A stretch of DNA of 64,000 nucleotides, from NCBI GenBank assembly GCA_016871535.1, contig VHCZ01000005.1, positions 530-64,529 of the forward strand, given 5' to 3'. The notes under the pieces are model-generated. The model worked only from the letters and a program-made list of their open reading frames with translations, had not been told where the DNA came from and searched no databases. This document shows positions 19,533 through 41,017 of the stretch, in pieces. Source of the stretch: Verrucomicrobiota bacterium. Its GTDB lineage: Bacteria > Verrucomicrobiota > Verrucomicrobiia > Limisphaerales > SIBE01. A program made the translations under genes and the position numbers. The stretch's first letter is position 1; each line of letters begins with the position of its first letter.

Positions 19533-22500
19533 CTACGACGGGTCCGCTTCTTGAAGCGCCTGATCGAGCATTGCCGCTGCTCTCGGCAGCACTTTGCGCA
19601 GCGCGGCAATTTGAGAATTGATCTTCTTCAATCCCTCCAGCGAGCGCGCGGCCAAGAGCCGCCGATACCAATTGACGAATTCCACGCTGAGCTGCGCTTC
19701 GTTTTCCGAGGGCGCGAGGGACGGAGTTTGGCCTTCCGCAAACTGGCAGATCAAGACCGCGGCCCGCGCGGAGGGTTCCTGAGCGTGGGCTGAATTCTGA
19801 AAGAACGGCAGGGCTTCGCTGAACCGGCCCCCCTTCAGCAACGCTTCGCCCCGCAACGCCCGGATCCCCGCGTGTTGCGGGAAATGCTTCAAGGCTTCCT
19901 CCGTCCAATCCACCGAGAACTCGGCGAACTCGGGTTTGCTGGCCGAGATGAAACTCCCCAGGTGCCAGAGATGCTCATCGTTGATGCCTTTGGCCATGAT
20001 GCCATGCAAGGTCTGCAGCGCTTCGAGTGAGCGGTCTGTGCGGTGCAGAAAATGGGCGTAATCGTGCAGGACGCCCGGCGTTTCGGGTTCAATGACGAGC
20101 GCCTGCTTGAAATGAGCCTCGGCCCGTTCGTTTTCTCCAATGACCGCGCAGCACTGGGCGAGCAGATGGTGCGGTCCCGCTTTGAACACTTGATGACACG
20201 GAGGCGTCAGCGTCGGCGCGTCGCGCTTGGCCAGACACGCTTCCAGATGCGGAATCGCCTCAGCGGCGCGTTTCATCCGCATCAGCGCGACCGCGGCCAG
20301 GAAGTGCATCGACGCGGTCGGCCCTGCGTCGCCGGCCAGACGCGAGGTCATGACATCCAGCACCTCGCCGAATAATTCCGCCTTGAGCGCGTGCACTCCG
20401 TAAATCGTGAGCAAGCGCTCGCGGACCTCAGGCAAAATGGACCCGGCCGGGTGCGGCGCCATGATGCGGAACGCGTGCCGGTATTTTTCCAGGCCTTCTT
20501 CCAGCCGCCCGTCGTTGACCAGGTCGAGTCCGTAATTCATGAGCAGCGCCGCTTCATTGGGCAGTTCCTGGACGGCTCGTTCCATCAGTCTGAGGTTCCG
20601 CTGGATTTTCTGCTTTCGTTTCACCAGGCCGGGATCGTAGCCATAGTGCATGATAGTCGCCGTGCCCATGGTCGCGTCCATGCCCCATTCGGCTTTGCGC
20701 GCAATCACGCTGGCGTAAATCTGCTCGTGAACCCGGCCGACGAAAAACAGGGCAGGCGCGTTTCGGAACAACCGCGGCACGTACGTCACGGAATCCGCCG
20801 CTTCATGAATGTTGCAGATCGGGATGCGGTAACCGAGCACGTTCGTCGCCGCCATGTCTCGGGACAGCTTTTCATGGCTTTCCTTCGGCAATTCTTCGTC
20901 CGCATCCAGAATCAAAACCCAATCGCCGCGCGCGTGCTCGTGCCCGGCGTTCCGCGCGTCGGCAAAATTGTCGTTCCAGTCAAAACGATAAATCTCCGCC
21001 CCGTGCTGCCGGGCAATCTCCACGGTGCGATCTTTGGATCCGGTGTCCACGACGACGATCTGGCTGGCGATGGGTTCCACCGACGCCAGGCACCGTCCGA
21101 TGTTGTCCTCTTCGTCTTTGGCGATGAGGCAGACGCTGAGGCGAGGTCTGTCGGGCCACTTGGGGAGCGGCGTCCAATTGATCTGGGACCGCTTGCCCTC
21201 GGCAGCGGTTTTGAGCGAAGCAAACACGCGCCGGGCCATTTCCCAGTTCGGTGTCATCCGAATCAAACGTTCCGCGCAAAGGAACGCCTGCCGTTCGTCG
21301 TCTGCCGACAGCGCAATCTCGATCATCTGCAAGTAGGCGTCGGGATGGAAAGGACGGAGTTTGATGGCTTCCAACGCCGCTTTCCACGCTTTCAAATACT
21401 TCTTCTGAGCCGCGAAATCTTGGGCCTTCTTCAACGAACCGATCAAGCCGGCGGCGGGTACTTCGATGGCCGGTTGCGGCGTCGCAGTCTCAGTTTTCGG
21501 GCGTTGAGTTAACCCAGCATCGCCTTCCCCCTCACCCCGGCCCTCTCCCCTGCCAGACTTTTCCGCAGCAGGGATCAGCCTTCCCTCTCCTTGGGGAGAG
21601 GGGCAGGGTGAGGGGAATCGTGCCACCGATTGCTCGCCGCGATTTGGATTCACGGCTGCGCGACCTGAATCCGGCAAAGTGATTGGACGAAGCCTAGTGG
21701 GATTCTCCGTCCGAGCCGCGAGGGCCTGCAAGCGTTTCTCGGCCGCTGCGGCCGCATGGGTCCAGGTCCATTTGCTGCGGACATGGACACTGGCGCGTTG
21801 CCCCAACAAGCGAGCCTCCGCAGGATGGGAGGCGACAAATTTCATCCGGTTGCTCAGAGCCTCCAGGTCAGGTTCCAGCAGCCAGCCTTGGCCCGCCAAT
21901 TCCAAATCTCCGACCTTGGTGCCGATGGATTGGCGCCGGGCGGGGATCCGGTACGCGAACTCTTCCGTCGCGAAATCGTCCGCCGCGCCTCCTGCCGTGA
22001 CGATCACGGGCAAACCGCACGCCATCGCCTCCAGAATCGGCAGCCCAAACCCCTCCCCGCGGTACGGATGAACCAGGCAATCGCAAGCCGTGTAGAGTCC
22101 GGGCATCTGTTCGGGCGCCAGGTCCTGGTTCAAGTAAACGATTTCCGGCGCGTTCGGATGACTCTGAAGCTGCCGGATCTGCGCTTCCAGCGTTTGGCCT
22201 TGGTAAAACGTGTTGGCGCCAAAATCCTTCACCACCAGGCAAACGTTATCCGCGGCCGTGAAGGATTTCAGATAAGCATTCAGCGCCAGGTCCGGTCCCT
22301 TGCGTCGAATCGTGCCGCCCACGAACAGGAACCTGAATTTCCGTGCCGTAGAGCAGGCATCCTGCCTGCCCTTCATTCCGTCTCGAGAGATTGAACCAGG
22401 CAAGCTGGAAGCCTGCCCTGCCTTTGGCAGCAAAAGCGGCGGCGCGTTCGGATGGAAACGATCGGGATTTGTCCCGTTGGGCACCACATAAACCTTCTCA

Positions 22501-23024
22501 GAAGGGATGCCGCTTTGAATGTAGCAATCTCGGACGAACGCACTTGGCACCCAGATTTCATCGACGCGATCTCGCAACACCGCGACCCAATCCTTCGGAA
22601 TGCAGCCAAATTCCCAGGGTTGAATGATCACCCAGTGACCGTCCTGGGGCGGCGTTGGGTTGAACGGCCATTGATGGCGCAAGTGAACGTGCGCCGGCCG
22701 GGCGAGAGGCGCGCGAACGCGACCGGCGATCTGGCCGAAGCGGGGATCAGCCTCCGGGCCGAATTGGTCGGGCTCGAACGGAAGAATGGAGAGGTCGTGG
22801 CCCCCCTCGATCAACTGGAGGCACAACTCGCGATTGATCAACGCCAGCGAATGGTGAACGAACTGCGACCCCTCCCAGATGATCGACAGCTTGCGTTCGG
22901 GGTGGCGCAGAGTTGCACTCTGCTGTATCGCCGATTTGGAATCGGAGGCGCGTGGACTGTTCGGAACGGATTCGAGTTTGCCGGCGCTTTGCAGGCTGCA
23001 ATCCTGCGATACGGCAGATTGCAA
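19533..23024 (-). CDS. multidomain glycosyltransferase: GT4-like, short TPR, GT2, C-terminal TPR array (1163 aa)
   Basis: GT4-type C-terminal half (LVHPYRGEGFGLPILEAMACGLPVIVT). GT2 (LSVCLIAKDEEDNIGRCLASVEPIASQIVVVDTGSKDRTVEIARQHGA...LILDADEEL). Multiple TPR-like helices at the C-terminus. No ATG start: the track uses TTG 23024. Contains in-frame repeat elements at 22348-22421 and 21527-21615. Confidence 0.85.
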   Translation of the reverse strand: MQSAVSQDCSLQSAGKLESVPNSPRASDSKSAIQQSATLRHPERKLSIIWEGSQFVHHSLALINRELCLQLIEGGHDLSILPFEPDQFGPEADPRFGQIAGRVRAPLARPAHVHLRHQWPFNPTPPQDGHWVIIQPWEFGCIPKDWVAVLRDRVDEIWVPSAFVRDCYIQSGIPSEKVYVVPNGTNPDRFHPNAPPLLLPKAGQASSLPGSISRDGMKGRQDACSTARKFRFLFVGGTIRRKGPDLALNAYLKSFTAADNVCLVVKDFGANTFYQGQTLEAQIRQLQSHPNAPEIVYLNQDLAPEQMPGLYTACDCLVHPYRGEGFGLPILEAMACGLPVIVTAGGAADDFATEEFAYRIPARRQSIGTKVGDLELAGQGWLLEPDLEALSNRMKFVASHPAEARLLGQRASVHVRSKWTWTHAAAAAEKRLQALAARTENPTRLRPITLPDSGRAAVNPNRGEQSVARFPSPCPSPQGEGRLIPAAEKSGRGEGRGEGEGDAGLTQRPKTETATPQPAIEVPAAGLIGSLKKAQDFAAQKKYLKAWKAALEAIKLRPFHPDAYLQMIEIALSADDERQAFLCAERLIRMTPNWEMARRVFASLKTAAEGKRSQINWTPLPKWPDRPRLSVCLIAKDEEDNIGRCLASVEPIASQIVVVDTGSKDRTVEIARQHGAEIYRFDWNDNFADARNAGHEHARGDWVLILDADEELPKESHEKLSRDMAATNVLGYRIPICNIHEAADSVTYVPRLFRNAPALFFVGRVHEQIYASVIARKAEWGMDATMGTATIMHYGYDPGLVKRKQKIQRNLRLMERAVQELPNEAALLMNYGLDLVNDGRLEEGLEKYRHAFRIMAPHPAGSILPEVRERLLTIYGVHALKAELFGEVLDVMTSRLAGDAGPTASMHFLAAVALMRMKRAAEAIPHLEACLAKRDAPTLTPPCHQVFKAGPHHLLAQCCAVIGENERAEAHFKQALVIEPETPGVLHDYAHFLHRTDRSLEALQTLHGIMAKGINDEHLWHLGSFISASKPEFAEFSVDWTEEALKHFPQHAGIRALRGEALLKGGRFSEALPFFQNSAHAQEPSARAAVLICQFAEGQTPSLAPSENEAQLSVEFVNWYRRLLAARSLEGLKKINSQIAALRKVLPRAAAMLDQALQEADPS
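21527..21615. repeat. G/C-rich imperfect palindromic element inside the 1163-aa ORF
   Basis: Arms CCCCTCACCCCGGCCCTCTCCCC (21527-21550) and GGGGAGAGGGGCAGGGTGAGGGG (21593-21615) are reverse complements with 2 mismatches. Translated in frame as ...PSPCPSPQGEGRLIPAAEKSGRGEGRGEGEG... Confidence 0.7.
22348..22421. repeat. 74-bp double-hairpin element (copy D), in frame inside the GT4 domain of the 1163-aa ORF
   Basis: gtagagcaggcatcctgcctgcc...caggcaagctggaagcctgccctgc is homologous to the 77-bp copies at 25017, 25734 and 26481. It encodes AGQASSLPGSISRDGMKGRQDACST. Confidence 0.75.
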
Positions 23025-23062
23025 ATCTGCGCTACGCGCAAGTTCGGGGCCGTCCTCAGGCG

Positions 23063-26000
23063 CTACCGTTTTTTTTTTCGCCGGGCAGGCTTGCTGGAGG
23101 AAGGCGGAGGAGAAGACGGCGGTTTAGTGAGCAAATCAAGATTCTCGCGGGCGACCGCATTCTGCGGATCGATCTGGAGAACTCGCTCGAAAACCATTTT
23201 CGCCGATTCCGCGTCGCCGGTTTTGTAGAAGCAAACCGCCAGCGGCAGCATCACTTCGGTGTCGTCCGGAGCCTGGAGAAGGATCTTGTGGTAGGTCTGG
23301 GCGGCGTCCTTGAAACGGTTCTCTCGAAAATTCAGGTCGGCCAACAACCGCAGCGCCGGGCGGTAGGTCGGATCATTTTCGAGCACGCGCCCAAGCACGG
23401 CTTCAAATTCGGGAATCCGTTCCAAACCCAGCAACGCCAGGGCCAGGCGAGTCTGGTAGTCCGAGGAATTGGGGAGCATCTGGGTTGCCCGCTGCAGTTC
23501 CTGGCAACTCGCGCTCAAGTCGCCCTTCTGGTAAAGGACACTGCCGAGGGCCGCGCAAATCTCGTGACTGTCGGGGCTCGCCTTCAGCGCTTCTTGGAGC
23601 GCCGCCGCAACCCCGGCCAGGTCTCCCGCAGACCACAATGCATTTGCCCGGGAAAGTTGCTCATCCAAAGCGCGCGTGCCGGCCTTCTCGATCGCGGAAT
23701 GCGGAGCGCGGAGTGCGGAATGGTCAGACTGCCCACTGACCTCTGACAACTGATCACTGGCCACTGATAACTGTCCACTCCCCTTCGCCACGCGAAGGTT
23801 GTCCAGGAGCACCTTCAGATTCTCCCTGGCCAATGTGTGTTCGGGTTCCAATTCCAGAATCCGCTCAAAAATCATTTTGGCGGTCTCGTAATCGCCTGTC
23901 TTGTAGAAGCAAACTGCCAGGGGCATCAGAACCTCCAGATCGTTCGGAGTCTGCTTGAGCATCTTCCCGAAAGCCTGGGCGGCGCTCTGGATCTTGCCTT
24001 GGTTGAAATCGACCTGCGCGCGGAGTCGAAGGGCGTCGAGGCAGTTCGAGTCCAATTCCATCGCCTTGGCCAACGCGGATTCAAATTCAGCCAATTCGCC
24101 CAACTGATAGTGGCACAACGCGAGTTGCACCCATTTGCCGGGATCGGACGGAGCAATCTGCACCAACCGTTCCAAATGAATGCGCGCCTGCCGCAAGTCG
24201 CCCAGTTGGAAACAAACTGTGCCGATCGCGGATAGAATCTCCGGAGAATCTGGCGCGAACGCCAGCGCCGCCTTGAGCGCGTCGCGCGCTTCGGCGAGGT
24301 TTTGCGACCCCACCGCCGCATCGGCCTTGGTCAACCACTGGTTCAACTGGGCAATTTCAGATTTCTCGGACTGCTGAGCCTCGGCAACCGACAACTGACC
24401 ACTGGCAACTGACAACTGGCCACTGTTCTCGCTCTTCTGGTCGAGCTGATAAAGATTCTCCCGCGCCGTGACATTGTTGGGGTCCATTTCGAGAACCCGG
24501 TTATAGACCATGCGAGCGGACTCGAAATCCGCGCCGCGATAAAAGCAAAGCCCCAGGCTCAGCAAGGTCTCCAGGTCATCCGGCTGGCGTTCCAGCAACT
24601 TGGCGTAGGCGCGGCCCGCGTCGCGCACCCGGTTGTTCTCCAGGTTGGTTTTGGCGAGAAACTTGAGCGCTTCGCGATGGTGCGGATCGATCTCCAGCGC
24701 GAGTCCGAGCGCGGCCTCCATTTCCTCGATGCGATTCACCTTCAGACAGGCCATGGCCAGCCGCGTATAGGCATCGACGTCGCGAGGCTTGATTTCGATC
24801 AATCGGCGGAATTGCTCCCGGGCCGCTTCGTAGTTTCCCTGGGTGAAGTGCAGGCTGCCCAGCGCCGAGCGAATCTGCGGGTCGCGCGGCGCCAATTCGA
24901 CCGCCTGTTCGAGAGTCTCCAGCGCGGCCTGCCGATTGCTGACCTCGCAGAAGAAATTCGCCTGGTCCATCAGTTTCGCCAAAGCCGACTGGTCGGTTGC
25001 CACTTGCGGTGGAGGAGTAGGGCAGGCATCCTGCCTGCCTTTCTTTCCGTCATCAGAGACCGTTGATTGAGGCAGGCTGGAAGCCTGCCCTACGTTCTCG
25101 ATTGCGGATTGAGACGACTGATCACTGACAACTGACAACTGATTACTCTCCCTGCCTTCCGACAGCTTCTGACGAATGGCCACCAGGTTCTCCTTCGCGA
25201 CCGGATCGTCCGGGTGCCGTTCCAAAGCGCGCTCAAAGACCAGTCTGGCCGTCTCCAGGTCGCCATCCTTGAAAAAGCAGACGCCGAGCGGCAACAGCGC
25301 GTCCAGGTCGTCCGGGTGCCGGCTCAAGATTTTCGTGTAGGCCTGAGCAGCATCCTTGAGGCGACCGTTCTGAACATTCAAATCGCCCAAAAGCTTCAGC
25401 GCATCGCGATGGTGGGGATCAATCTCCAGCGCCCGGCCCAGCGCGACTTCAAACTCCTCGATCTGATCGAGCTTCAAGTTAGCCAGCGCAAGCTGCACGA
25501 AGACCGCCGGATCGCGCCGGTTCACTTCGGTGGCCCGCTGTAGATACTGATAGGCCTGCTCGAATTCATTCAAAGCGAAACAAATCGCCCCGGCCGCGGC
25601 GAGCGCCCTCGGCTCATCACGCTCCAACCGCAACGCCTCGACCAACAGTTCTTTCGCTCTGGCGAGGTTCCCCCGCTGGTGTTCGGTCTGCGCCTTTTCC
25701 AGGAGACCATCGATTGCGGAGTGCGGTTGAAGAGCAGGGCAGGCATCCTGCCTGCCTGTCTTGCCCTCTTCCAAGACCGTTGATTCGGGCAGGCTGGAAG
25801 CCTGCCCTACGTTCTCCATCGCGGATTGTGGATTGCGGATTGCGGATTCGGGCGACTGATCACCGCTCACTGACAACGGATCACTGACCACTGATAACTG
25901 CCCCACGGCCATCCTCTGCCGGATCACATCGAGATTCTCCTTCGCCACGGGATTTCCGGGATGCTTCTCCAGCACGCGCTCGAACACCAGCTTCGCCGTC

Positions 26001-29000
26001 TCAAAATCGTTCACCTTGAAGAAGCAGACTCCCAGGGGCAACAACGCATCCAGATCGTCCGGATGGCGGCTGAGGATTTTTGTGTAAGCCTGGGCGGCGT
26101 CCTTGAACTGGTCGTTTCGAAGATTCAAATCGGCCAGCAACTTCAGCGCGTCGCGGTGGTACGGATCGAGGTCCAGGGCGCGTCCCAACGCCTGCTCGAA
26201 TTGATCGATGCGCTCCAGCCGGAGATGAGTCAAGGCGAGTTGAACGAACGCGGAGGGATCCGAAGGCATGATTTCCGTCAGCCGGCCGAAGTGACGCTGC
26301 GCCGTGATGAAATCGTTCAGAGCGAACGCAGCCATTCCGAGTTGTTCGATGACTCGAATGTTGTTCGGCGCTTGCTGCAGCGCTTGCTCCAGGATTTGTC
26401 GCGCGGACGAGTGATTCCCATTCTGGCTCTCCCGTTCTGCGCTCGCCAACAAGCGTTCGATTTCAGAGTTCGGCTGAAGAGTAGGGCAGGCCTCCTGCCT
26501 GCCTTTCTTACTGTCTTCAGAGATCGTTGATTCAGGCAGGCTGGAAGCCTGCCCTACGTTGGCCTGATTCAGTGCGGAGTGCGGAGTGCGGAGTGCGGAT
26601 CCAGGCGACTGATTACTGATTACTGATAACTGATCACTGACCACCCCCGAAGCCCTTTCCTCTATCTTCTTCTTGATCGCCGCCAAATTGTTGGCTGCGA
26701 GCGAATGATTCGGGGAGATTTGCAGAATGCGCTGATAGACTTCCCGGGCCGTTTCCCATTCATTCGCCTTAAAGAAGCAGGCGCCCAATCCGAGCAATGA
26801 GTCCAGGTCCTCCGGATTGCGCGAGATGATCTTCACGTAGGTCTGGCCGGCGTCCTTGTAACTTCCCTGCTTCAAGTTCAAATCCGCCAGGAGTTTGAGT
26901 GCGTCGCGGTAGTTCGGGTCGAGTTCCAGGGCGCGGCCCAGTGCCGCTTCGAAATCCTCGATCTGGTCGAGTTCAAGGTTCGCCAGGGCCAACTGGACGC
27001 GAACGCCAGGATCGTTTGGAGCCAACTCTGCGGCCTTTGCAAAATGCTCTCTGGCTGTGGCGAACTCATTCAAGCTGAACAAAATCGCCCCCAGCGTGGC
27101 GTGGATTCGCGGAGAGTTGGGCAGGTGTTGCAGCGCCTCCAGCAAGACGGAGCGGGCATTGGCGAGGTTGCCTTTGCGGTATTCGGCATCGGCTCGTTCC
27201 AGTAGCCGATTGGCCTCGGGCGATACAGGACCTATCTCTAAGTCCGGTTTCGGGTTGGAGTCGTGCGCGTCGTTCATCGAATGCACCGATTCTCGTTTAT
27301 AGCTGGGAATGCGGCCCTGTCGAGCCAGTTCTTGGCCAATTGCGGAGCCTTCGGGTGCGGAGTGCGGAGTGCGGAGTGCGGATTCTGACAACTGATTACT
27401 CCCCCCTGGCAACTGGCAACTGGCAACTGACAACGGATCACTGACCACTGATTCAGGCGAGAGGCGAGGGGCGTCAGGCGTCTGAGGGCGAACGGATTCT
27501 GACAACTGATCACTGACTACTGATAACTGATTACTGGTTTTGCCTCGCAACTCCTCCGCGATCTCCGCCAAGCGCCCGGCCGCAAGCTCCGCCACGCGAT
27601 CCCATTGCCATTTCTCGACCATGTCCTGCCGTGCGCGCGAGCCAATCCGGGCCATTTCCTCCGGCTGTTCAACCACGCGGGGCAACAGTTGAGCCAGATG
27701 GTCTCTCGAAGGTTCAGCCCAGCGATGCCCTCGGAAATACTCGATTTCGGATTCCGGGCCCACGTCGGCCATCTTGTAATCCAGCAAGATGCTGTTCCGC
27801 TCGGTCATGAACTCGCGCGTGCCACTCCATCCGGTCGCAATCACGGGCAATCCGCATGCCATGGCGTCCATCTGCGGCCTGCCCCAGCCTTCGCCCCGCG
27901 ACGGCGCGACGTAAGCGGTGGCGGCGGCGTAGAGATGCGGCAAGTCTGCTTCGGAGATGGGACAACCCAAAACAATAATCGGAGCCACCTGAGAGCGATT
28001 CAACTTCAAGATGCGGCTCAGAAAGGCATCAATGAACAAATTGATCTCGCGCGAAACATCCGGCGCCTCGGAGGCATTCAATGGATAAGCGCGCAGCACC
28101 AGGCAAACGTCGTCCTGAGGTTTGAAAGCGCGGGCCCACGAATGAAGGAGCACGTCCCAACCTTTGCGATAGCTCCATTCGAAGATCGATAGAAAGACGG
28201 TCTTTCGTCTTCCAGGAATTGGCAGAGGATTCAAACCGGGTCGAAAGCGGTCGGTATCGACTCCCCCCGGAATCTTGACCAATCGTGCCGTCACGCCGGA
28301 GTTCCTGAAGGACTCCAGCGAGTGCTCCGTCGGCACCCAGATTTCATCCATCCGATTGCACTTTTCGACCCACTCCTGCGGCAGCCGATCGGTCTCGAAC
28401 ATGGTTCTGCCAATGCAATAGGCAGCGCCCGGCAGCCGATCCAGGCAACGGCCTGAAACGTGAACCACCGCGGCAAACGGAGAAGGGATGTTCTTCTGCA
28501 GCAGGGCATCGAGTTTGTCGCGATCCGCCGAATCGATCTTGGCACGGCAACCTTCGGAAGCCGGGGCGAAGGAACGAATCGCCAGATTGATATTGTTGCT
28601 CTCCAGATTCAGGACAAAGTGCCGGGCTTCCTCAGCATAGCCACTGAAGCTGTAAAACAGGCCGTGCCACAGAACAGGCATCGCCGAAGCGGCGGACGAA
28701 GTCAGGTTTTCTCCTGCGCCACTTCCGCGCGCCGGCGAATCGACGGGCCGCACGAGGGGCTCGAAGGGAGGCGAGGCGTAAAGTGAACTCTGCTTCGTGT
28801 CCCCGCCAAACGCCAGCAGCATCTTGCTCCACAACTCCCTCGCGGCTGGATGCATGGGATCGAGCCTCAGGCACATCCGGACGTAATCCGCGCATTCCGC
28901 GTAGCGCTGAACTCGCGCGGTCTCGACCGCTTTCGCGAGCAACGCGTTCGGAGGCGCATTCTGCAATTCCGGGTCTTCCCAGGGGAACTTGAATTCGGCC

Positions 29001-32000
29001 TTGCGAGCCAAGATCACCCTTCCCACCTGGGTGTAACGCCGGTCATTATGGGTCACGGTACTGAATGGGCAGCACCGAATGGAAAAGCCTGCCGTCTTCA
29101 GGCGCTCGGAAAAATCGACATCCTCCAGTTGGTAGAATCCGCGTTGACCATCCCACTGCACGAGATCGGAAACGGCAGCCTTCATAATACAGAGGCCGCC
29201 GGTGACGTAAACGCGTGAATCGTATTCCGTGTATTCCAACAAGCGTTGCTCCGCTGCCGAGCCCGCCTTGGCCCAGTCCCAGAACCGCGTGCCGTCCGTA
29301 TTCAGAAGTCGAACACAGAGCACGTCGTAATTCTCCCCAAAATTGAGCAGCCCTTCGTAGAAATCCGCATGGAAAATCATGTCGTCGTCCGCGACGACGA
29401 GGCGGTCGTACTGGGCTCGCCGGCAAAGTTGATTCCGCATTTCCCCAAGCCGTCCGGCATGAGCCACCTCGGCCATCGGCACCGCGATGACATCGTCGAA
29501 ACCGGCTGGCACATCGCCGCCCACGAGGATTTCGCATTGAGGAATCTTGAGCGCCCGTATGCTTTGAATTTCCTCGCGCAGCTTGGCGGGGCGCTTGCCG
29601 TTCGTGATGATGCAGAAACTAAAACCCGGCGCGCGTTGTTTGGCGCACTGAGGCGCTGACGAATCGACTCGTTGGACGTTCACGGACGAAGCGTCGGCCA
29701 GCTTTTGCGCCGCGTCCGGTTCGTCCAAGAGGCTCTTCTCTGCCTTCTGCGTGCGCGGCGGCGTGGGCGGATGGAAGCGAGCCTTGGCATCGAACTGCAT
29801 GCTCCAGCGCTGGCCGAACAACTGCACGTTTTCAGGCACATGCTGCAAGCGCCCGGCGCTTTTGGCCTCGTGGTGGTACACGACCGTGCGCGGCTCATAA
29901 ACGACCTTCCAGCCCGCCGCGCGAACCCGCAGGCACAAATCGACATCCTCGCCGCCATTCTTGAAGCTTTCGTCAAACCCGTTCAACTCGAAGAACAGCG
30001 TTCGCGGAATCATCAGGCAAGCGCCGGTGACGATGTCCAGCTCGCGAAACACGTTGACTTCGGGCGCGGAAGCCGGGGCGAAACGATGCACGTGATCCAG
30101 CATCTGCCCGACCAACCCAAACCCCGCGTGCTGCACCCGTCCATCCGGATACAGCAGTTTCACGCCGACCACTCCGACTCGCGGCAAGCGCGCCGCCCAG
30201 ATCATCGAGTCGCACCAACCGGGCGTGACCCGCGTGTCGTTGTTCAGGAACAGCAACAAATGTCCGCGAGCCTCCAGCGCGCCTTGATTGCAGCCGCGGG
30301 CGAAGCCCACGTTTTGTGAATTCAGGAACGCGCGCAGCCGTCCGGCCTGTTGCTCGCGGCGCAAATAATCAGCCGTTCCGTCCGTTGACGCGTTGTCCAC
30401 CACGATAATCTCGCCCTTGGCGGGATCGATCGTTTCGTAAAGGGAAGCGAGGCACTCGCGGTTCAATTCGAGATTGTCGAAAGTCAGGACGATGATGGAG
30501 ACGAGCGGCAAGGATTGGATGGCTCCCTCTCTTCCACTCGAAGAGAGGAGCGGGCTGAGGAGAGGAGGACTATCGTGCTGACTTTTCCACTCTCCTCGAT
30601 CCTCTCCCCACTCATGCTTCGCGGGGAGAGGAGGAAGACCTACGGTCTCCGCACTCCGCACTCCGCATTCCGCAATGGTTGCCGGTTCCCCTCCGGGGAG
30701 GGGTGAAGCCGTGGGTTCACTGTTCGGCAACGAAGCAGATTCTTGTGAAGCAGCTTGAGCCTCGGCGGCCTGACGGCTTGCCAGCACTTCTCGTTTCATT
30801 CCTTCCAGGTACGCTTTTCGAGCCGCTTGCAGTTCCGGCCGCCCCGACACCAGATGTTCCGACTTCTCATAGACGCGCGTGGCGGTTCGCAGCATATCCG
30901 CCCGTTTGCCGCTGTTCATGCTCGTGCCGTCGAATCGCCAGCGAAACTCGCACGTGACTTTGGGAATATGGAAGAACTGGAAATGGCGCGACATGCGGAT
31001 CCACAAATCCCAATCCTCATGGCTGGTCAGCGATTCGTCGAATCCCCCGGCGGTTTCCCAGCACGCCTTTTCGTGCATGAAGCACAGCACGGGCACGAAA
31101 TTGCCCACCAGGATTTCATCCCGATCAAAGTCGCGTGAATACGGAACATCCCGGCGAACGATTTCATAACTGCCGCCCTTCTTCATTTGGTGGGCGCGCC
31201 AGGCATCTGTGTAGGCGACTTTCGCTCCGCTTTTTTGCAGAAACTCGTGCAGCGTTTGGAGATGGTCGGGAAGAAAAAGGTCGTCGTCGTCCAGATACGT
31301 GATGTATTTGCCGCGCGCCTGGTTGACGCCCGTATTTCTGGCCGCGGCCAGGCCGCGGTTCTGGAAGTGTTGGAAGTAACGGATCTTTCGCGAAGCGTTA
31401 AGGCCTTCGATCTGCTTGGAGACATCCTGCCCGGCGTCGTTGACGACCAGGATTTCAAAATCCTGGAACGTCTGGCTCAAGATGCTCTGGAGCGTTTCCG
31501 CGAGCATCTCTGGCCGGTTATAGGTCGGCACGATGACGGAAATGGCCGGCCCCTGGCTCTGGGCCTTCGGGTTCCCTTCTCCGCGCAAGAACCTCCGGGC
31601 AATCTCCACAATGTCCTTCGGATAGAGGTCAGGATGATTGGCGATAATGTTGATGCGGAGGATCGTGTCGCGTTTCAGCGCATCCTGAAAAAGCCCATCC
31701 GCTTTCTCGCGGTAGTGGAATAAGGGTTTGGCAATTCGCTTGCCCACGAATCCTTTTTCTCCGCAGCCAATCCAGAAATCCCAATCTTCGTATCCTTTGA
31801 CATTGGTCTTGTATCCGCCCACCGTTTCCCACGCCTGGCGGCGAAAGAGGGAACAATAACAAAGATGGTTCGCGTGGATCAGAACTTTGAAGTCGTACTC
31901 GGCGGTCGGTTGAATCCACGAACGCTCCCGGTTGAAAAAGATGGCATCCGTGTAAGCAATCGCTACGTCCGGGTTGGACTCTAGAATTTGCACGCACTCC

Positions 32001-35000
32001 GCCAGGAGGGTCGGCGCGATGCGGTCGTCAGCGTCCAATGGCAGGATGAATTCGCCTTGTGCTTCGGCAATTCCTCGGTTGCGGGAGATCGCCGGCTGGC
32101 CGGAGTTCGGCTGGTTGATGAGCTTGATTCGGTGCGTGGAATACCGGGCGCGAAGGCTTTCCGCGACCTGCGCGCTGTCATCAGTGCTCCCGTCGTTAAC
32201 GATGATAATCTCAAAATCCTGATAGGTCTGCTTGATGACGCTATCGACCGCCTCCGGCAGGTAGCGCTCGTAATTGTAGCAAGGGATGACCACGGACACT
32301 CGGGGCGGCGATTTCATGGGTTGCACCGCCGCTTCGCCCGATACGGCGCTCGGCAAAGCAATGGACCTTGTCGCTCGCGCCTGGTTCGCTTGGCGTTGAA
32401 ATTCACCGCGAAGCTCCGCCATTCGCGCGGACACACCGGCAGGCATCTCGAAATTCGCCTTGATGGGTTCGCCTTGGATCACTGACGTCCACGCTCGAAT
32501 AACGACGTTCCAACTGAAGCACGCCCCCCAGTGATCGTAGCCGCACTGGCCCAGCGCCTTTCTCAACTCCGTCTCTCGCAGCAACGTCGCAATAGCATTT
32601 GGAAACTCCGCCAGCGGCACGATGACGCCGCCGGCATTGTCGTGGACCGCGCCGCAGTTCGGTGTCGCCACCCATGCCTTCGCGTGGCTCATCGCTTCCA
32701 GAATGACGACGGGCGACGCTTCGGCGCGCGAGGGGAGCAGGATCAAATCCGCCGCTTCCATCGCTGCCGAAACCTTCTCCGGCGGCAAACCCGGAATCCA
32801 GATGACTTTGGGATCGCGTTCGACTGCCTCGCGAACAGCCTTGCCGTAATTCTGTTCCATCGTTGTGCCGCCGATGATGGCCAGGCGCCATTCTCCCGGA
32901 AGATTCTGCAGCGTCTCGAACAACCCCAGGTGATTCTTCACGCGGAACAGGTTCGCCACGTGCAGCAGCAAGGGCATGTCCTTAGGGATGCCGTGTTCGC
33001 GCCGGAAATCTCCCGCTGGCGCAACGACGTCAACCGCATTGGGGATGTAAGCGGGATCGATCTTCTCTTCCTGGAAGTAGCGATCCCCCGCCCCATGCCG
33101 TGTGATGGACACGACCGCGTGCGCTGATTGGAGAACAGAGCGGAGCGATTCACGAAACTCGCGATCGCCTCGCCAGTTGTGGAAGGCCGCATCGTTGATC
33201 ACCGGCTGGAGGATCAGCCGAAAACGGCGCGGAAGAGTCAGCCCATGAAACGCCCAAAACAAAAGGTTGGAAGGATCGGAAATCGCAATGCACGCGTCGT
33301 AGCGCCCGGAACAAACGAGTTCGCCCAATTGCACCGTGGCGCGCGGAAGGGTCGTTCCCGAAATCTTTTCACGATCCAATGAGATCACGCGCATTCCCAG
33401 ATGGTCGTCCGTTTGCCGCGCCTCATTGGAGTAGGCGGCAACTTCCACATCGAAATCCAGGAAGGACAAACGCCGGCCCAGGTTTTCGACGATGCTCTCG
33501 ACTCCGCCGACCGAAGGGTAGAAATGGGGACAAGCCAGGAGAACGCGCGGACGAGAAGTCCGGTTCGCCGTTTTTCGAGCCTCGACAATCCGGCTCGAAG
33601 CGCTTTGCACGCGCGGCCAATCGTAGAGCCTGAAATGGTTGACCGTGATTTGGGCCTTGAGAAGTTCGCGATTGCGATTCGCTCGATCGAGCAAGCCCGA
33701 GCCGTGTTTCCGATAGAAAAAGAGCGGCTCAGGGATGAGCCGCCCCTCCCAGCCTTTCTCCGCGAGGCTGATCCAAAAGTCCCAGTCTTCGTAGCCTTTG
33801 ACATTGAGTTTATATCCGCCAACCTCGGCCCAGAGCCGCTTTCGATAGAGCGCGCAATAAGGGACGCAATTGTCCTGGAGCAGATTTTGGAGCGTGAACT
33901 CGCCGCACCGCCAAATGTCCTGGCGATCGCCGAAATGCTGCAATTGAGAATAGACCACGCCGACCTTGCCGTCGGATTCGATGAGGTTTACGGCCTTTTC
34001 CAGGAAGGTGGGCGCAATTTTGTCGTCGGGATCCAGGGGAAGGACATATTCGCCTCGGGCCGCGTCGATGCCGGAGTTCCGCGCGCTCGCGGGCTGGCCG
34101 GAGTTGCTTTGCCGGATCAACGTGATGGGAAGGTCCTGATAGGTGTCGATAAGCTGCCGGGCTACGCTGGCCGTATTGTCCGTGCTGCCGTCATCGACAA
34201 TGATGATCTCGAAATCGCGGCATGTTTGCCGAGCAACGCTTTCGACTGCCTCCGGCAGAAAGTGCGCGTAGTTGTAGCAGGGGATGACGACGCTGACCTT
34301 CGGGGGCGGGATACTTTCCGCGTCAGCTTCAGGCCGGCGGGGCATTCGAGACTCTTGCGTCTGGAACAGATCGGAGCGGGCTTCATCCATCGAAGGCGCA
34401 TCGGCTTTGTGCAGGCTTTGCGGATCGCTACCCCCGCCGGTCAACCACGTCACTACAGCGTGTTTCGTTGCGCCGCAGACCGGCTCAAAAAACTCGCGCG
34501 ACTTCTGCTCTGACCAAGGCCTCGGTTGGATGGATTGACGGTTCGCCGCGAGCTTCTGAACGACGGCTCTCAACTCCGAAGCGGTTCGACATGTGAAGTC
34601 ATACTCTGCAAAGGGCATGACATTTTGATCGACAAAAAATTCTGAGAGCAACCCAATCGTGGTCCGGCCCGCATGAGCCGCCTCAAACTCGACCGAGGAT
34701 CCGTTGCAGATGACAACTTCGCTATCGACGAGCGCTTCGCTCGCGGACCGTTGCCCCACGATCATCTCCTCCGGCAGAGACGAAAGCTGCGCAATCCGGA
34801 GCGCCGTCTGGAGAAGTTCCGATTCGCGCCCCATCCGGGGATGAAACCGAATTTCCAGGCGGACATTGCGGATGGCATGGAGCGCTTCGATCGTCCGCGT
34901 GAGCATTTCCAGAGACGGCCCCGCTTCAATCACGAGGCACAACAAGACGCGCAAATGCGGGCCGGAAGATTGAGGAAGCGCGGCCGCCTTCGCGCCCGCC

Positions 35001-36355: not shown

Positions 36356-36474
36356 GACCGCTTAAGGCCAGTTTCAAAAGTGGCAGCCGAGAGTTTTGAT
36401 CCGTCAAGGCCTCGAAACCAGGAGGAAGAATTGGCGGAGAGAATGAAAGAAGCGAGAAGAAGAATCCGACCTGT

Positions 36475-37242
36475 CTACAAGGGTGGCGTCGATTCAACGT
36501 CGTCGGTATAGCCGTGCCGTTTGAGCCAGAATTCTGCCTGGGGAATTTGCCATTCGTAGTCCACGTCCAGCCCGCCCCAATTGTGAACCGGAAAGATCTT
36601 CTTTCCCATCCAGCGCTGAGGCAGGAGCCCCTCATGCAGGTTCTCTAAACAGCGAGGCCGGACCACCGACACCCCCATGTCCGCGTAATAAACATTGCCT
36701 TGGGAGTCGCGGTCGCAGGACAATTTCGATGGGTCGCCAAAAGCGTCGAAAGGCACGAACGGCTGCAAGCACCCGTCTTCATCCGCACGCCGGGCGCGCA
36801 ACGGACTCCACATGTTGTAACAGGAGACCGTGACGGCGCTGTCCAGCGCTCCGTTTCTCCGCAAGGTCTTGACCCCCTCTTCAATCAAGCGACTGGTCAC
36901 GGTTGGGGAATTCGCGAACAGCAGCACCATCAACTCGATTTCTTTACCCTCCTGCCGCCAGAGCTCGCGGATGTGCCGATACCCATGCGCAAAAGCATCC
37001 TCGCCCAGGGCCGTGGCCGTGCAAAGCTCCGGGGGGCGGACGATGATTCTCGCGCCGTGTTGCCGTCCGACCGCCATGATTTCTGGAGAATCGGTGGAAA
37101 CAAAAACTTCGTTGACAAATTTGCAGCCCCGCGCCGCCAGAATGGGGTAAGCCATCATGGGCCGGCCCAACAGAGGATACAGATTCTTGTTCGGCATGGT
37201 CACGCTGCCGCCGCGACCCAGTAAAAGCGCAGGAATAGCCAT
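36475..37242 (-). CDS. acylneuraminate (nonulosonate) cytidylyltransferase family protein (NeuA/PseF/LegF-like)
   Basis: MAIPALLLGRGGSVTMPNKNLYPLLGRPMMAYPILAARGCKFVNEVFVSTDSPEI matches the CMP-NulO synthetase N-terminal signature (IPAR.GS...KN...L.G.P). Confidence 0.85.
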   Translation of the reverse strand: MAIPALLLGRGGSVTMPNKNLYPLLGRPMMAYPILAARGCKFVNEVFVSTDSPEIMAVGRQHGARIIVRPPELCTATALGEDAFAHGYRHIRELWRQEGKEIELMVLLFANSPTVTSRLIEEGVKTLRRNGALDSAVTVSCYNMWSPLRARRADEDGCLQPFVPFDAFGDPSKLSCDRDSQGNVYYADMGVSVVRPRCLENLHEGLLPQRWMGKKIFPVHNWGGLDVDYEWQIPQAEFWLKRHGYTDDVESTPPL

Positions 37243-37268
37243 AATTGTTTAATCTGTTCGCAACCTTT

Positions 37269-37541
37269 TTACTGCAGTGATATCTCCGCCCGTGCCACAG
37301 AGAGGGATTGTTCAGCCTGGGTTCCGAATTCGATCGAGGCTTCTATCATCTTTCTGACATCCATGAGTCCGCGTCGGGACGAAGCGTAAGGACCGCCGGC
37401 AAGATGCTTCAGCATGTCGCGCTCTGAATCCCCCAGATCAACGCTTCGCGTGGCGGCCTCCGGATCGTCTAAGAGCAGCAACCTGAAGGGCTCATTTTCC
37501 ACGGCCTTGTTCACGATATCCCAGAGATTTTGCAGAGACAT
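37269..37541 (-). CDS. 90-aa ORF with NHLP/Nif11-leader-like N-terminal half and a double-glycine motif (candidate RiPP precursor; alternatively a divergent carrier protein)
   Basis: MSLQNLWDIVNKAVENEPFRLLLLDDPEAATRSVDLGDSERDMLKHLAGG-PYASSRRGLMDVRKMIEASIEFGTQAEQSLSVARAEISLQ. Gaps to its neighbours are 21 nt and 26 nt in the same orientation. The family call is by eye only. Confidence 0.55.
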   Translation of the reverse strand: MSLQNLWDIVNKAVENEPFRLLLLDDPEAATRSVDLGDSERDMLKHLAGGPYASSRRGLMDVRKMIEASIEFGTQAEQSLSVARAEISLQ

Positions 37542-37562
37542 ACTCGCACCCGGTTTCCACTT

Positions 37563-39134: not shown

Positions 39135-39145
39135 GTGAGCGCTCT

Positions 39146-40819: not shown

Positions 40820-40856
40820 CGCGCTGATGGCTTTCGCATCAAATCCTCTTCAGCCG

Positions 40857-40872
40857 AGCAAGTTGCGCGCCA
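40857..40872 (-). promoter_or_regulatory. sigma54 promoter TGGCGCGCAACTTGCT (read on the - strand)
   Basis: One mismatch to TGGCACG-N4-TTGCW with exact GG-N10-GC spacing. It lies in the 198-nt gap upstream of the first B12-rSAM gene (ATG at 40819), ~38 nt upstream of the ATG. Confidence 0.6.
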
Positions 40873-41017
40873 CGGAATTGAAGCCCCATTTCTACTTCCG
40901 AAACCCAAGAATGCACCATGTTGGGCGTCTTGGGTCGCCCGCCCTGGGAATAATATTCCGCCCTGCGGACGAAATTGTCCCGGGGCCAGTCGGATGGGAA
41001 GCCGGCCTGCTGAAAAG

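What the first reader, a model, noticed from the sequence alone, without database searches (positions are those of the whole stretch)
23690..27545. Interdomain linkers built from heptanucleotide-periodic DNA (GTGCGGA and ACTGAYN families) kept in frame six times
- **Composition.** Every junction between TPR modules, and the junction between GT4 and the first TPR module, consists of 7-nt-periodic repeats.
- **Perfect arrays.** (GTGCGGA)x4 at 26572-26599 and at 27355-27382, and (CTGGCAA)x3 at 27406-27426.
- **Degenerate arrays.** ~23693-23779, 24384-24427, 25100-25152, 25818-25900, 26606-26645 and 27495-27540. An inverted (ACTCCGC)n copy lies at ~30647-30685.
- **Frame behaviour.** Because 7 is not a multiple of 3, the protein sees a 7-aa period (SALRTPH, QLSVVSD). 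Any gain or loss of a single unit would shift the frame and truncate the protein at that linker.
- **Possible consequence.** All six linkers are nevertheless in frame and translated in the same register. Slipped-strand change in unit number could therefore act as a switch that sets how many C-terminal TPR modules are made.
- **Simpler reading.** The repeats are a genome-wide intergenic repeat family that has been recruited as flexible linker sequence.
Basis: seen in the sequence. Interest (0 to 1): 0.65.

Follow-up and report, generated by a model that had tools for sequence, protein, structure and literature searches.

The report
Dispersed repeats translated as protein linkers
The linkers between the domains of a giant glycosyltransferase from a lake Verrucomicrobium are made of three families of dispersed repeats that settled there recently and in frame; this is a striking example of tolerated repeat DNA inside a gene, and nothing found shows it acts as a genetic switch.

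Summary
All six linkers of a 4430-aa ORF (23063..36355, minus strand) contain 7-nt-periodic DNA, and nothing else in the 64 kb does. The linkers hold three separate repeat families:
- TAACTGA-type heptamers, already published, always in the one orientation that lacks stop codons.
- GTGCGGA/ATTGCGG-type heptamers, which I found in more than 120 MAG loci from at least 15 differently named bacterial groups.
- In three linkers, a 77-nt GTAG-tagged REP doublet. A fourth copy sits in frame in the next gene.

Intragenic GTAG REP dimers are already described, most abundantly in a Verrucomicrobium.

Orthologues settle the origin. A relative with 67% FlgI identity has the same TPR modules but ordinary linkers with no repeats. 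A relative with 75% identity has only remnants and lacks the REP insertion. Within the gene, the TPR modules are saturated at synonymous sites, while the linker repeats are 75-93% identical. The repeats are therefore recent arrivals.

The slipped-strand switch is not supported. Arrays have at most 4 perfect units. Independent assemblies show no change in unit number: four to five cover linkers L2-L5, one covers L0-L1.

A real polymorphism that changes the C-terminus does exist, but elsewhere: a 13-nt indel beside an A10 tract at the stop codon.

The parts
23063..36355 (-). Host gene: a 4430-aa ORF with several GT2 and GT4 glycosyltransferase domains followed by six TPR modules.
   Evidence: ORF list, translation, Pfam. 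Other assemblies call the same 4430-aa gene.
27340..27545 (-). Linker L0 (GT4 to TPR1). CAGTNNT arrays at 27495-27541 and 27406-27451, and (GTGCGGA)x4 at 27355-27382. No REP doublet. Possibly a former intergenic spacer.
   Evidence: M3027, just downstream, is the start chosen for a truncated contig (1404-aa call in L250). In relative L259 the TPR protein is a separate 1462-aa gene.
26481..26645 (-). Linker L1. CAGTNNT array at 26606-26645, (GTGCGGA)x4 at 26572-26599, and GTAG-REP doublet at 26481-26557.
   Evidence: RNA hairpin of -50.6 kcal/mol, z = -8.0.
25734..25900 (-). Linker L2. CAGTNNT array at 25858-25900, degenerate (GCGGATT)x4 at 25818-25848, and REP doublet at 25734-25810.
   Evidence: Hairpin of -49.9 kcal/mol, z = -7.3.
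25017..25148 (-). Linker L3. CAGTNNT array at 25113-25148, about 1.5 TCCGCAA units at 25100-25111, and REP doublet at 25017-25093.
   Evidence: Hairpin of -49.0 kcal/mol, z = -7.1.
24384..24427 (-). Linker L4. CAGTNNT array only (GQLSVASGQLSV).
   Evidence: Absent from orthologue L259, which reads SPIATVSAAKAPAPKEPPQG there. Array SNPs at 24410 and 24398 in other assemblies.
23693..23779 (-). Linker L5. CAGTNNT array at 23728-23779 and degenerate (TCCGCRY)x3.9 at 23693-23719.
   Evidence: Orthologue L259 keeps only a degenerate TCAGNNG x4 here and has no TCCGCAC array.
30647..30675 (-). GTGCGGA-type array in the opposite orientation, read as AECGVRSAE between two GT domains, followed by a different GE-rich palindrome.
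22348..22421 (-). Fourth GTAG-REP doublet. It sits in frame between the two Rossmann halves of the GT4 domain of the next gene and is read as AGQASSLPGSISRDGMKGRQDACST.
   Evidence: Pfam Glyco_transf_4 ends at residue 189 and Glycos_transf_1 starts at 229. Orthologues L259 and L261 lack these 25 residues. Hairpin z = -5.3.
22901..23037 (-). A 135-nt hairpin repeat between the giant ORF and the next ORF. It belongs to another dispersed family.
   Evidence: 73-80% identical copies in L157, L211, L152 and L161. Fold z = -4.8. Contigs L254, L255 and L256 end inside it, at 23035, 23035 and 23026.
23066..23083 (-). A10 tract (23069-23078) directly before the TAG stop, and the site of a 13-nt indel polymorphism (after 23083).

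Best explanation
The linkers of this giant verrucomicrobial glycosyltransferase-TPR protein have been colonised by three unrelated families of dispersed, stop-free repeat DNA:
1. TAACTGA-type heptamers, always in the reverse orientation, the only one without stop codons.
2. GTGCGGA/ATTGCGG-type heptamers, which are open in all six frames.
3. GTAG-tagged REP doublets (REPIN-like hairpins), which are open in two of three frames.

**How it works**
- Inter-domain linkers tolerate extra hydrophilic, probably disordered peptide, so repeats that land or expand there survive only if the total length keeps the downstream modules in frame. 'In frame six times' is therefore survivorship, not design.
- The repeats arrived after the TPR modules had duplicated and diverged. 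A single composite (CAGTNNT array, TCCGCAM array, REP doublet) then spread between linkers.
- The result is a set of flexible spacers. No switch is involved.

**Shown:** the repeat families, their wide dispersal, in-frame translation, absence from orthologues, and youth relative to the modules.

**Inferred:** the neutral or selfish nature of the repeats, and how the composite spread between linkers. Candidates are short-tract gene conversion or template switching seeded by identical stretches, or movement of the composite as a unit.
For: **Families and dispersal**
- TAACTGA repeats are published. The reverse orientation reads LSVISYQ, and the forward orientation has stops in all three frames. 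All 23 matches here are on the coding strand.
- (TCCGCAM)x3 occurs in more than 120 MAG loci from at least 15 differently named bacterial groups, against about 2 expected by chance (my arithmetic). It is in frame inside genuine genes such as a protein kinase, a molybdopterin oxidoreductase and an FtsX permease.
- The palindrome has the GTAG tag, a 7-bp stem and a 5-nt loop, paired in inverted orientation. It occurs in at least 118 metagenome loci.
- One locus has such REPs flanking a RAYT-like gene (NCBIfam REP_Tyr_transpos, E = 6e-16).
- It lies in frame inside polA, uvrC, uvrD and pfkB genes, matching published intragenic GTAG REP dimers that encode 20-30 aa.

**Recent, lineage-specific arrival**
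- Orthologue L261 has one-to-one TPR modules, ordinary Pro/Ser/Glu-rich linkers, no period-7 DNA and no REP arm in 21 kb.
- Orthologue L259 has no heptamers in L4, only a remnant in L5, and no REP doublet in the neighbouring GT4.
- Paralogous TPR cores are 49-62% identical in DNA and 32-48% at third codon positions.
- Linker repeats are 75-93% identical, and identity drops sharply at the end of the REP doublet.
- The junctions between components are shared by L1-L3, which points to one ancestral composite.

**No switch**
Against: - The three families are not associated with one another in other genomes: 1 of 157 REP arms has a heptamer array within 150 nt. Why they stack in the same order in several linkers of one gene is only partly explained.
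- REP arms are more conserved than the spacer between them (by my own base count for L1 against L2, 2 of 46 arm bases differ against about 8 of 31 spacer bases; sequences). This hints at constraint or homogenisation at the DNA or RNA level rather than pure neutrality.
- Three hairpins of about -50 kcal/mol inside a coding region might be expected to be costly, yet they persist.
- Genome-wide copy numbers in the source organism could not be counted. Within the 64-kb window, all copies of the two heptamer families and of the GGCAGGC-type REP lie inside ORFs rather than between genes.
Confidence: 0.7

Rival explanations
1. **Slipped-strand switch.** Gain or loss of one heptamer unit shifts the frame and truncates the protein at that linker, so the population varies in how many C-terminal TPR modules it makes.
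For: - The unit length is not a multiple of 3.
- In silico, adding or removing one unit at any of the 12 arrays gives a stop within 3-79 codons.
- Two arrays are perfect 4-unit tracts although the neighbouring coding DNA is highly diverged. Either some array homogenisation occurs or the arrays are young.
Against: - The maximum is 4 perfect units. The known heptanucleotide phase-variable tract (hmw1A) is studied at 13-24 units.
- No unit-number difference appears in any independent assembly: one extra for L0-L1 and four to five for L2-L5, with only SNPs.
- In 132 arrays from other genomes, length is capped at 3-4 units (122 of 132).
- The same arrays sit inside housekeeping genes, where switching would be harmful.
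- The arrays are absent from orthologues.
Confidence: 0.05
2. **The linker repeats work at the nucleic-acid level.** The near-identical linkers would serve as in-frame recombination substrates that add or remove whole TPR modules, and/or the -50 kcal/mol REP hairpins would pause ribosomes between modules or stabilise segments of the 13-kb mRNA.
For: - Linkers share 75-93% identity, including 23-30-nt perfect stretches. Homologous positions are spaced by 717, 747 and 783 nt, all multiples of 3, so unequal exchange would stay in frame.
- The hairpins are very stable, z = -7 to -8.
- REP arms are better conserved than the spacer (my base count on the sequences).
- A REP role as an RNA element is discussed in the literature.
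Against: - All assemblies carry the same module number and gene length, 4430 aa.
- Orthologues function with ordinary linkers.
- The same REPs are scattered in unrelated genes and intergenic DNA, as expected of selfish elements.
Confidence: 0.15
3. **Ancient linkers.** The repeats were present in the first linker-plus-module unit, were copied with it by tandem duplication, and have been kept by selection on the encoded peptides.
For: The six units (linker plus module) align colinearly, with linkers at homologous positions.
Against: - Module duplication predates the species splits. Modules are one-to-one orthologous: the aligned C-terminal region, linkers included, is 66% identical to L259 and 55% to L261 in protein, against 33-59% between paralogous module cores. 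Yet the orthologues lack the repeats.
- Linker DNA is far more similar than the saturated synonymous sites of the modules. Peptide-level selection cannot produce that.
Confidence: 0.03
4. **Assembly artefact.** Dispersed repeats were wrongly joined into one long ORF.
For: Some contigs end at repeats: L250 at about 27549 (my arithmetic from the record range), and L254-L256 at 23026-23035.
Against: Contigs from several samples and sources (JGI, ENA, Logan) agree base for base across the linkers at 99.9% identity. One 41-kb contig spans the whole gene with the same 4430-aa call.
Confidence: 0.01

Closest known systems
Intragenic GTAG-tagged REP dimers / REPINs (Di Nocera et al. 2013, PMC3733652; Bertels & Rainey 2011, PMC3116915)
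   Same: - A GTAG tetranucleotide followed by a short stem-loop, with two units in inverted orientation around a 20-100-nt spacer.
- Dimers inside ORFs encode 20-30 aa. They are most numerous in a Verrucomicrobium (Opitutus terrae) and are often placed in flexible linkers of modular proteins.
- The window's four copies encode about 25 aa each.
   Different: - All four copies in the window are intragenic.
- Three sit at equivalent positions of tandem paralogous modules, each fused to heptamer arrays.
- A RAYT gene could not be looked for in the source genome.
TAACTGA heptamer direct repeats (MacGregor 2015, PMC4679880)
   Same: - The same unit family (NNACTGA on the plus strand here).
- Arrays are short, 2-6 units.
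- Inside ORFs only the reverse orientation is possible, reading LSVISYQ-like peptides.
   Different: - The published cases come from Beggiatoaceae, Thiocystis violascens, Cyanobacteria and Bacteroidetes, are mostly just upstream of start codons, and have a suggested role in translation.
- Here the host is a Verrucomicrobium, the units are degenerate (a 21-nt super-period that avoids stops), and the arrays are inter-domain linkers.
Rickettsia palindromic elements (RPE; my own knowledge of Ogata et al. 2000, and as summarised in PMC3733652)
   Same: Palindromic repeats inserted in frame in many unrelated protein-coding genes and translated as extra peptide segments.
   Different: - RPEs are CGTC-tagged or longer elements of an obligate intracellular alphaproteobacterium.
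- There is no sequence relationship, and no heptamer component.
Simple-sequence contingency loci (for example the ATCTTTC heptanucleotide tract of Haemophilus influenzae hmw1A, PMC8262952)
   Same: A tandem 7-nt unit whose gain or loss changes expression. The frame logic holds here.
   Different: - Known tracts are long (13-24 units in that study) and variable between isolates.
- Here arrays have at most 4 units, lie in the 3' third of the gene, and are invariant across assemblies.
Heptameric SSR over-representation in bacteria (GGGAATC in Xanthomonas, GGGGAYT in Nostoc, STRR of Calothrix; Rehm et al. 2015, PMC4692102)
   Same: Short heptamer arrays, mostly intergenic and sometimes as inverted pairs able to form hairpins. 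The GTGCGGA-type arrays behave the same way.
   Different: - The unit sequence differs, and there is no G-quadruplex potential.
- The library search found no paper naming GTGCGGA/ATTGCGG repeats.

Membership tests
REP / REPIN (GTAG-tagged repetitive palindromes) | A GTAG (GT[AG]G) tetranucleotide at one end, followed by a short imperfect palindrome. | tested here: met
   GTAG + GGCAGGC + 5-nt loop + GCCTGCC. There are 8 arms in the window against 0.01 expected.
REP / REPIN (GTAG-tagged repetitive palindromes) | [quoted passage not shown] | tested here: met
   Four doublets with a 29-31-nt spacer. Folding energy is -40.6 to -50.6 kcal/mol, z = -5.3 to -8.0.
REP / REPIN (GTAG-tagged repetitive palindromes) | Many dispersed copies in the genome, mainly extragenic. 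| tested here: inconclusive
   Only 64 kb of the source genome is available, with 4 doublets, all inside ORFs. The same arm occurs in at least 118 metagenome loci, many of them intergenic.
REP / REPIN (GTAG-tagged repetitive palindromes) | An associated RAYT (REP-associated tyrosine transposase) gene flanked by REPs. | tested here: inconclusive
   There is none in the window (tblastn). Metagenome locus L135 has a gene with NCBIfam REP_Tyr_transpos E = 6e-16 (58.6 bits, below the cut-off of 80) and Pfam Y1_Tnp 22.2 bits (cut-off 23), flanked by such REPs. The source genome is not available.
TAACTGA heptamer direct repeats | Tandem direct repeats of TAACTGA or single-base variants, a few units long. 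| tested here: met
   Units TAACTGA, TCACTGA, CAACTGA, CCACTGA and TTACTGA, 2-7 per array.
TAACTGA heptamer direct repeats | Inside ORFs only the reverse orientation occurs, because the forward orientation has stops in all frames. | tested here: met
   All 23 pattern matches are on the coding strand as CAGTNNT. The rule is stated.
TAACTGA heptamer direct repeats | Predominantly intergenic, just upstream of start codons. | tested here: not met
   Every copy in the window is inside the giant ORF.
SSR phase-variable (contingency) locus | Unit length not divisible by 3, inside a reading frame. | tested here: met
   The unit is 7 nt. Adding or removing one unit truncates within 3-79 codons.
SSR phase-variable (contingency) locus | A long, perfect tract prone to slippage. 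| tested here: not met
   At most 4 perfect units. The comparator hmw1A is studied at 13-24 units.
SSR phase-variable (contingency) locus | Tract length differs between strains or within populations. | tested here: not met
   No unit-number change in L246 (L0, L1) or in L248-L251 and L253 (L2-L5). Read-level data were not testable.
Rickettsia palindromic elements | A palindromic repeat inserted in frame in unrelated protein genes. | tested here: met
   Copies lie in the giant gene and in the neighbouring GT4. Related copies lie in polA, uvrC, uvrD and pfkB.
Rickettsia palindromic elements | Sequence family of Rickettsia RPEs (CGTC tag). | tested here: not met
   The arms carry GTAG, not CGTC. 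RPE features are given.

The most novel reading that the evidence does not exclude
The near-identical, frame-matched linkers are not just tolerated junk. They would form a built-in system for reshaping a modular protein. Their 23-30-nt identical stretches, spaced by multiples of 3, would let whole TPR modules be gained or lost in frame by unequal exchange. Their -50 kcal/mol hairpins would pause translation between modules. Together with the 13-nt indel and A10 site that fuses the next ORF, the C-terminal architecture of this cell-surface glycosylation enzyme would be a variable, population-level trait.
Probability: 0.1. Interest if true: 0.6.

Novelty: new member of a known kind. Interest (0 to 1): 0.35.

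Why it matters
- **A clean natural example.** Dispersed bacterial repeats that lack stop codons can become protein sequence. Orthologues give a before-and-after picture: ordinary linkers in one relative, remnants in another, fully repeat-built linkers here.
- **A warning for annotators and protein-family builders.** Peptides such as QLSVVSD, SALRTPH/SAIRNPQ and VGQASSLP...GRQDACPT are translated repeat DNA, not conserved motifs.
- **A caution about repeat units.** A unit length that is not a multiple of 3 inside a gene is not by itself evidence of phase variation.
- **A lead worth following.** The GTGCGGA/ATTGCGG heptamer family is spread across many bacterial groups with a sharply fixed size of 3-4 units, and I found no description of it. 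It may deserve study in its own right.

Tried and rejected
- **Linker peptide search.** A word-indexed protein search with a 61-aa linker peptide found no candidate. This is uninformative and probably reflects a limit of the index.
- **Close relatives.** None were found for the GT4-linker-TPR segment; the best hits share at most 56% identity over the GT4 domain only. The gene's own product is not listed.
- **Exact-sequence look-ups.** Look-ups of the giant protein, the neighbouring ORF (M-start version) and FlgK failed. Flanking genes and FlgI homologues served as anchors instead. L258 ended too early to help.
- **Profile search.** A profile of the four REP-encoded peptides against 1.84 billion representatives gave only 16 weak hits in short proteins. 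The motif is too short for this method.
- **Rfam.** Nothing reached any family's threshold; two miRNA-like hits and one whalefall-1 hit fall below gathering score.
- **Composite mobile element.** I tested whether the three repeat families travel together in other genomes. They do not: 1 of 157 REP arms has a heptamer array nearby.
- **Same-frame idea.** I first thought the next ORF was in the same frame as the giant ORF. Translation showed it is offset by one base.
- **Literature.** A search for the GTGCGGA-type unit found nothing relevant.

Full report
**1. What is there**

The region lies inside one ORF on the minus strand, 23063..36355, encoding 4430 aa. Pfam finds several GT2 and GT4 glycosyltransferase domains followed by a long TPR region. 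The TPR region resolves into six paralogous modules, each preceded by a linker.

At a threshold of 15 of 21 matches, lag 7 gives 13 segments, all within 23689-30680. Lags 4-6 and 8-11 give 0-4 segments. Pattern counts are far above shuffled expectation: 23 against 0.01 for three CAGTNNT units, and 17 against 0.86 for two TCCGCAC units.

On the coding strand, a full linker is a composite of three parts:
- a CAGTNNT array, read as QLSVVSD-like peptide;
- a TCCGCAM array, read as SALRTPH or SAIRNPQ;

L0 and L5 have only the two heptamer arrays, and L4 only the CAGTNNT array.

The (CTGGCAA)x3 array is CAGTTGC on the coding strand, a variant of the first family.

**2. The three components are three known kinds of dispersed repeat**

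*(a) The ACTGAYN family is the published TAACTGA heptamer.*
- It was described in Beggiatoaceae, Thiocystis violascens, Cyanobacteria and Bacteroidetes as mostly intergenic arrays of 2-6 units.
- The forward orientation has stops in all three frames. Inside ORFs only the reverse orientation is found, reading LSVISYQ (PMC4679880).
- All 23 matches in the window are in that reverse orientation.

*(b) The GTGCGGA family is widespread.*
- The hits come from MAGs of Acidobacteriota, Verrucomicrobiota, Planctomycetota, Gemmatimonadota, Chloroflexota, Bacteroidota, Nitrospirota, Armatimonadota and other groups.
- About 2 hits are expected by chance for uniform base composition (my arithmetic).
- The arrays have no conserved flanks. 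122 of 132 have 3 or 4 units.
- A quarter have an inverted partner array, always in the arrangement GCGGATT...AATCCGC (33 to 1).
- They are depleted in long ORFs: 28% have at least 100 codons of open frame on both sides, against 52% of random positions.
- Some lie in frame in genuine genes, including a protein kinase, a molybdopterin oxidoreductase and an FtsX permease.
- I found no paper naming this unit.

*(c) The palindrome is a GTAG-tagged REP doublet.*
- Each arm is GTAG, a 7-bp stem (GGCAGGC/GCCTGCC) and a 5-nt loop. Two arms in inverted orientation flank a spacer of about 30 nt.
- As RNA each doublet folds at -49 to -51 kcal/mol, z = -7 to -8.
- The arm occurs in at least 118 metagenome stretches, often as doublets.
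- In L135 such REPs flank a gene whose best match is NCBIfam REP-associated tyrosine transposase (E = 6e-16, below the curated cut-off).
- Related copies lie in frame in polA (between exonuclease domains), uvrC, uvrD and pfkB.
- Di Nocera et al. (PMC3733652) already described this: intragenic GTAG REP dimers encoding 20-30 aa, most numerous in the Verrucomicrobium Opitutus terrae, frequent in repair genes, and probably tolerated in linkers of modular proteins.
- A fourth doublet in the window (22348-22421) lies in frame between the two Rossmann halves of the GT4 domain of the next gene.

**3. Source and independent assemblies**

Exact-protein look-ups place the window in freshwater metagenomes, for example JGI 3300020197 contig Ga0194128_10001436. 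I recall the Ga01941xx series as Lake Tanganyika samples; no tool output named the lake. FlgI is 91% identical to a protein named 'MAG: Verrucomicrobia bacterium'.

Contigs from several samples and sources (JGI, ENA, Logan) match the window at 99.9% identity.
- L246 covers 26475-40903, which includes L0 and L1.
- L248-L251 cover 5109-26218, which includes L2-L5.
- L253 reaches 24407.

None differs in the unit number of any array. The only differences in the repeats are SNPs at 24410, 24398 and 26492. The region is therefore not a misassembly, and there is no evidence of length variation at consensus level.

**4. The orthologues are decisive**

Two syntenic relatives were recovered through FlgI.

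*L261 (FlgI 67% identical):*
- It carries one 5101-aa gene with one-to-one orthologous TPR modules.
- Its linkers are ordinary Pro/Ser/Glu-rich sequence.
- There is no 7-nt periodicity and no REP arm anywhere in 21 kb.

*L259 (FlgI 75% identical):*
- It has orthologous modules. The aligned C-terminal region, linkers included, is 66% identical in protein to the window.
- It has no heptamers in L4.
- In L5 it has only a degenerate TCAGNNG x4 plus a different GE-rich palindrome.
- It has no TCCGCAC array.

Both relatives lack the 25-residue REP insertion in the neighbouring GT4. L259 reads PLSIPTQKSFKFLFVGG where the window reads PLLLPK[AGQASSLPGSISRDGMKGRQDACST]ARKFRFLFVGG.

L259 has its own (TCAGAAA)x4 array in another inter-domain linker. 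Linkers of this gene cluster therefore repeatedly pick up heptamers.

**5. Age of the linker repeats relative to the modules**

- Paralogous TPR cores in the window are 33-59% identical in protein, 49-62% in DNA and 32-48% at third codon positions. Synonymous sites are saturated.
- Module duplication predates the species splits, because the modules are one-to-one orthologous across the three genomes.
- The linker repeats of L1-L3 are 75-93% identical in 30-nt windows. Identity falls to 30-57% immediately after the last base of the REP doublet.
- The non-repeat junctions between components are also shared.

The composite therefore spread between linkers long after the modules diverged. It was not simply co-duplicated, and peptide-level selection cannot explain the DNA identity.

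How it spread is inferred, not shown. Candidates are short-tract conversion or template switching seeded by identical stretches, or movement of the composite as a unit. In other genomes the three families are not associated: 1 of 157 REP arms has a heptamer array nearby.

**6. The switch hypothesis**

The arithmetic is right: adding or removing one unit at any of the 12 arrays gives a stop within 3-79 codons. Every other expectation of a contingency locus fails.
- Arrays have at most 4 perfect units, against 13-24 in the hmw1A heptanucleotide tract.
- Apart from the inverted copy at about residue 1894, they lie in the last third of the gene.
- They are invariant across assemblies.
- The family-wide length distribution is capped at 3-4 units.
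- The same arrays sit inside housekeeping genes.

'Same register' carries no information for a 7-nt repeat. The 28-nt arrays are not multiples of 3, so the frame is a property of the whole linker. I put the switch at about 5%.

**7. Best explanation**

Stop-free dispersed repeats colonised permissive inter-domain linkers in this lineage. Purifying selection on the downstream modules removed every out-of-frame variant, which is why all six linkers are in frame. The encoded peptides act as flexible spacers.

Some residual oddities keep a nucleic-acid-level role open at about 15%:
- the same stacking order in several linkers;
- REP arms better conserved than the spacers;
- three very stable hairpins inside a coding region.

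Candidate roles are in-frame recombination between linkers (their spacings are multiples of 3) or translational pausing.

**8. A real C-terminal polymorphism, found in passing**

The giant ORF ends ...RRKKKR-TAG, with an A10 tract at 23069-23078. The next ORF (GT4-GT2-TPR, 19533..23024) has no convincing start codon of its own and is offset by one base.

Contigs L249 and L251 carry a 13-nt insertion (GGGTATCCGGCGC after 23083) that puts the two ORFs in one frame, giving a product of about 5600 aa. The window, L248, L250 and L253 lack it. A +1 slip in A10 would have the same effect (my reading of the frames). In L261 the two parts are natively fused; in L259 they are separate.

So the number of C-terminal domains does vary in this population, but through an indel at the stop codon rather than through the heptamers.

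**9. Verdict**

- The simpler reading is supported and refined.
- The switch is not supported.
- This is a new member of known kinds (REP-decorated proteins and heptamer SSR families).
- Interest is moderate to low. The added value is the orthologue-dated picture of repeat colonisation and the apparently undescribed, widely distributed GTGCGGA-type heptamer family.

Noticed in passing
window 23063-23083; L249 and L251 (locus position about 17961): An A10 tract sits directly before the giant ORF's TAG stop. Two independent contigs carry a 13-nt insertion (GGGTATCCGGCGC) after 23083, and four sequences (the window and three contigs) lack it. The insertion shifts the frame by +1 and fuses the giant ORF to the downstream GT4-GT2-TPR ORF. 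A +1 slip in A10 would do the same. Relative L261 has the two parts natively fused (5101 aa), while L259 has them separate.
   Followed up: partly
window 22901-23037: A 135-nt hairpin repeat (z = -4.8) lies between the two ORFs. Copies 73-80% identical occur in four unrelated metagenome contigs (L157, L211, L152, L161). Three assemblies end inside it. It supplies the only in-frame start candidate (TTG at 23024) of the next ORF, so the annotated N-terminus of that ORF is probably not real protein.
   Followed up: partly
L001-L120 (genome-contig scan): (TCCGCAM)n arrays occur in MAGs from at least 15 differently named bacterial groups. They have a sharply preferred size (57 with 3 units, 65 with 4, only 10 longer) and no conserved flanks. 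There is a 33:1 bias for the inverted-pair arrangement GCGGATT...AATCCGC. Other heptamers (AATTACG, CACCAAT, AAATCCA, GGAGGCA) sit beside them. I found no publication naming this unit.
   Followed up: partly
window 27240-27545 (linker L0), residue M3027: L0 may be a former intergenic spacer. In relative L259 the TPR array is a separate 1462-aa gene. When the upstream sequence is missing (L250), the gene caller starts a 1404-aa product at M3027, just after the heptamer arrays.
   Followed up: partly
window 30560-30640 and 21527-21616: A further repeat type, a GE-rich palindrome (CCTCCTCTCCCC...GGGGAGAGGA), is translated as LPPLPAKHEWGEDRGEW in the giant ORF and as SPCPSPQGEGR...GRGEGRGEGEGD in the next ORF. 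The second site gives sub-threshold Rfam hits (whalefall-1 at 27.5 bits against 37). L259 has related sequences at the equivalent place and in its L5 linker.
   Followed up: no
L259 16671-16717: The orthologous neighbouring gene of a relative has its own (TTTCTGA)x4 array. It is read as KSEIRNQKSEIR in the linker between two duplicated GT4 domains. This is another heptamer family in another linker of the same gene cluster.
   Followed up: no
L124, L139, L150, L173, L130 (metagenome loci): GTAG-REP units of the same arm family lie in frame inside uvrC, a pfkB kinase, a UvrD-type helicase and DNA polymerase I (between the 5'-3' and 3'-5' exonuclease domains), as confirmed by Pfam. By eye, one also lies in a spermidine-synthase-like membrane protein (L130, not checked with Pfam). 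They mostly use the same reading frame (VGQAS(S/R)LP...).
   Followed up: yes
window 20549 (L253) and 26492 (L246): There is population variation elsewhere. A 1-nt deletion in one contig splits the neighbouring gene into 335-aa and 796-aa calls. A C/A SNP in the loop of a REP arm changes E3288 to D, restoring the GRQDACPT version seen in the other copies.
   Followed up: no
window 40000-40903 versus L246: 89 of the 90 differences between the window and contig Ga0194128_10001436 are concentrated in the last 900 nt of the overlap (40000-40903). This suggests a recombination boundary or a strain-mixed contig end.
   Followed up: no
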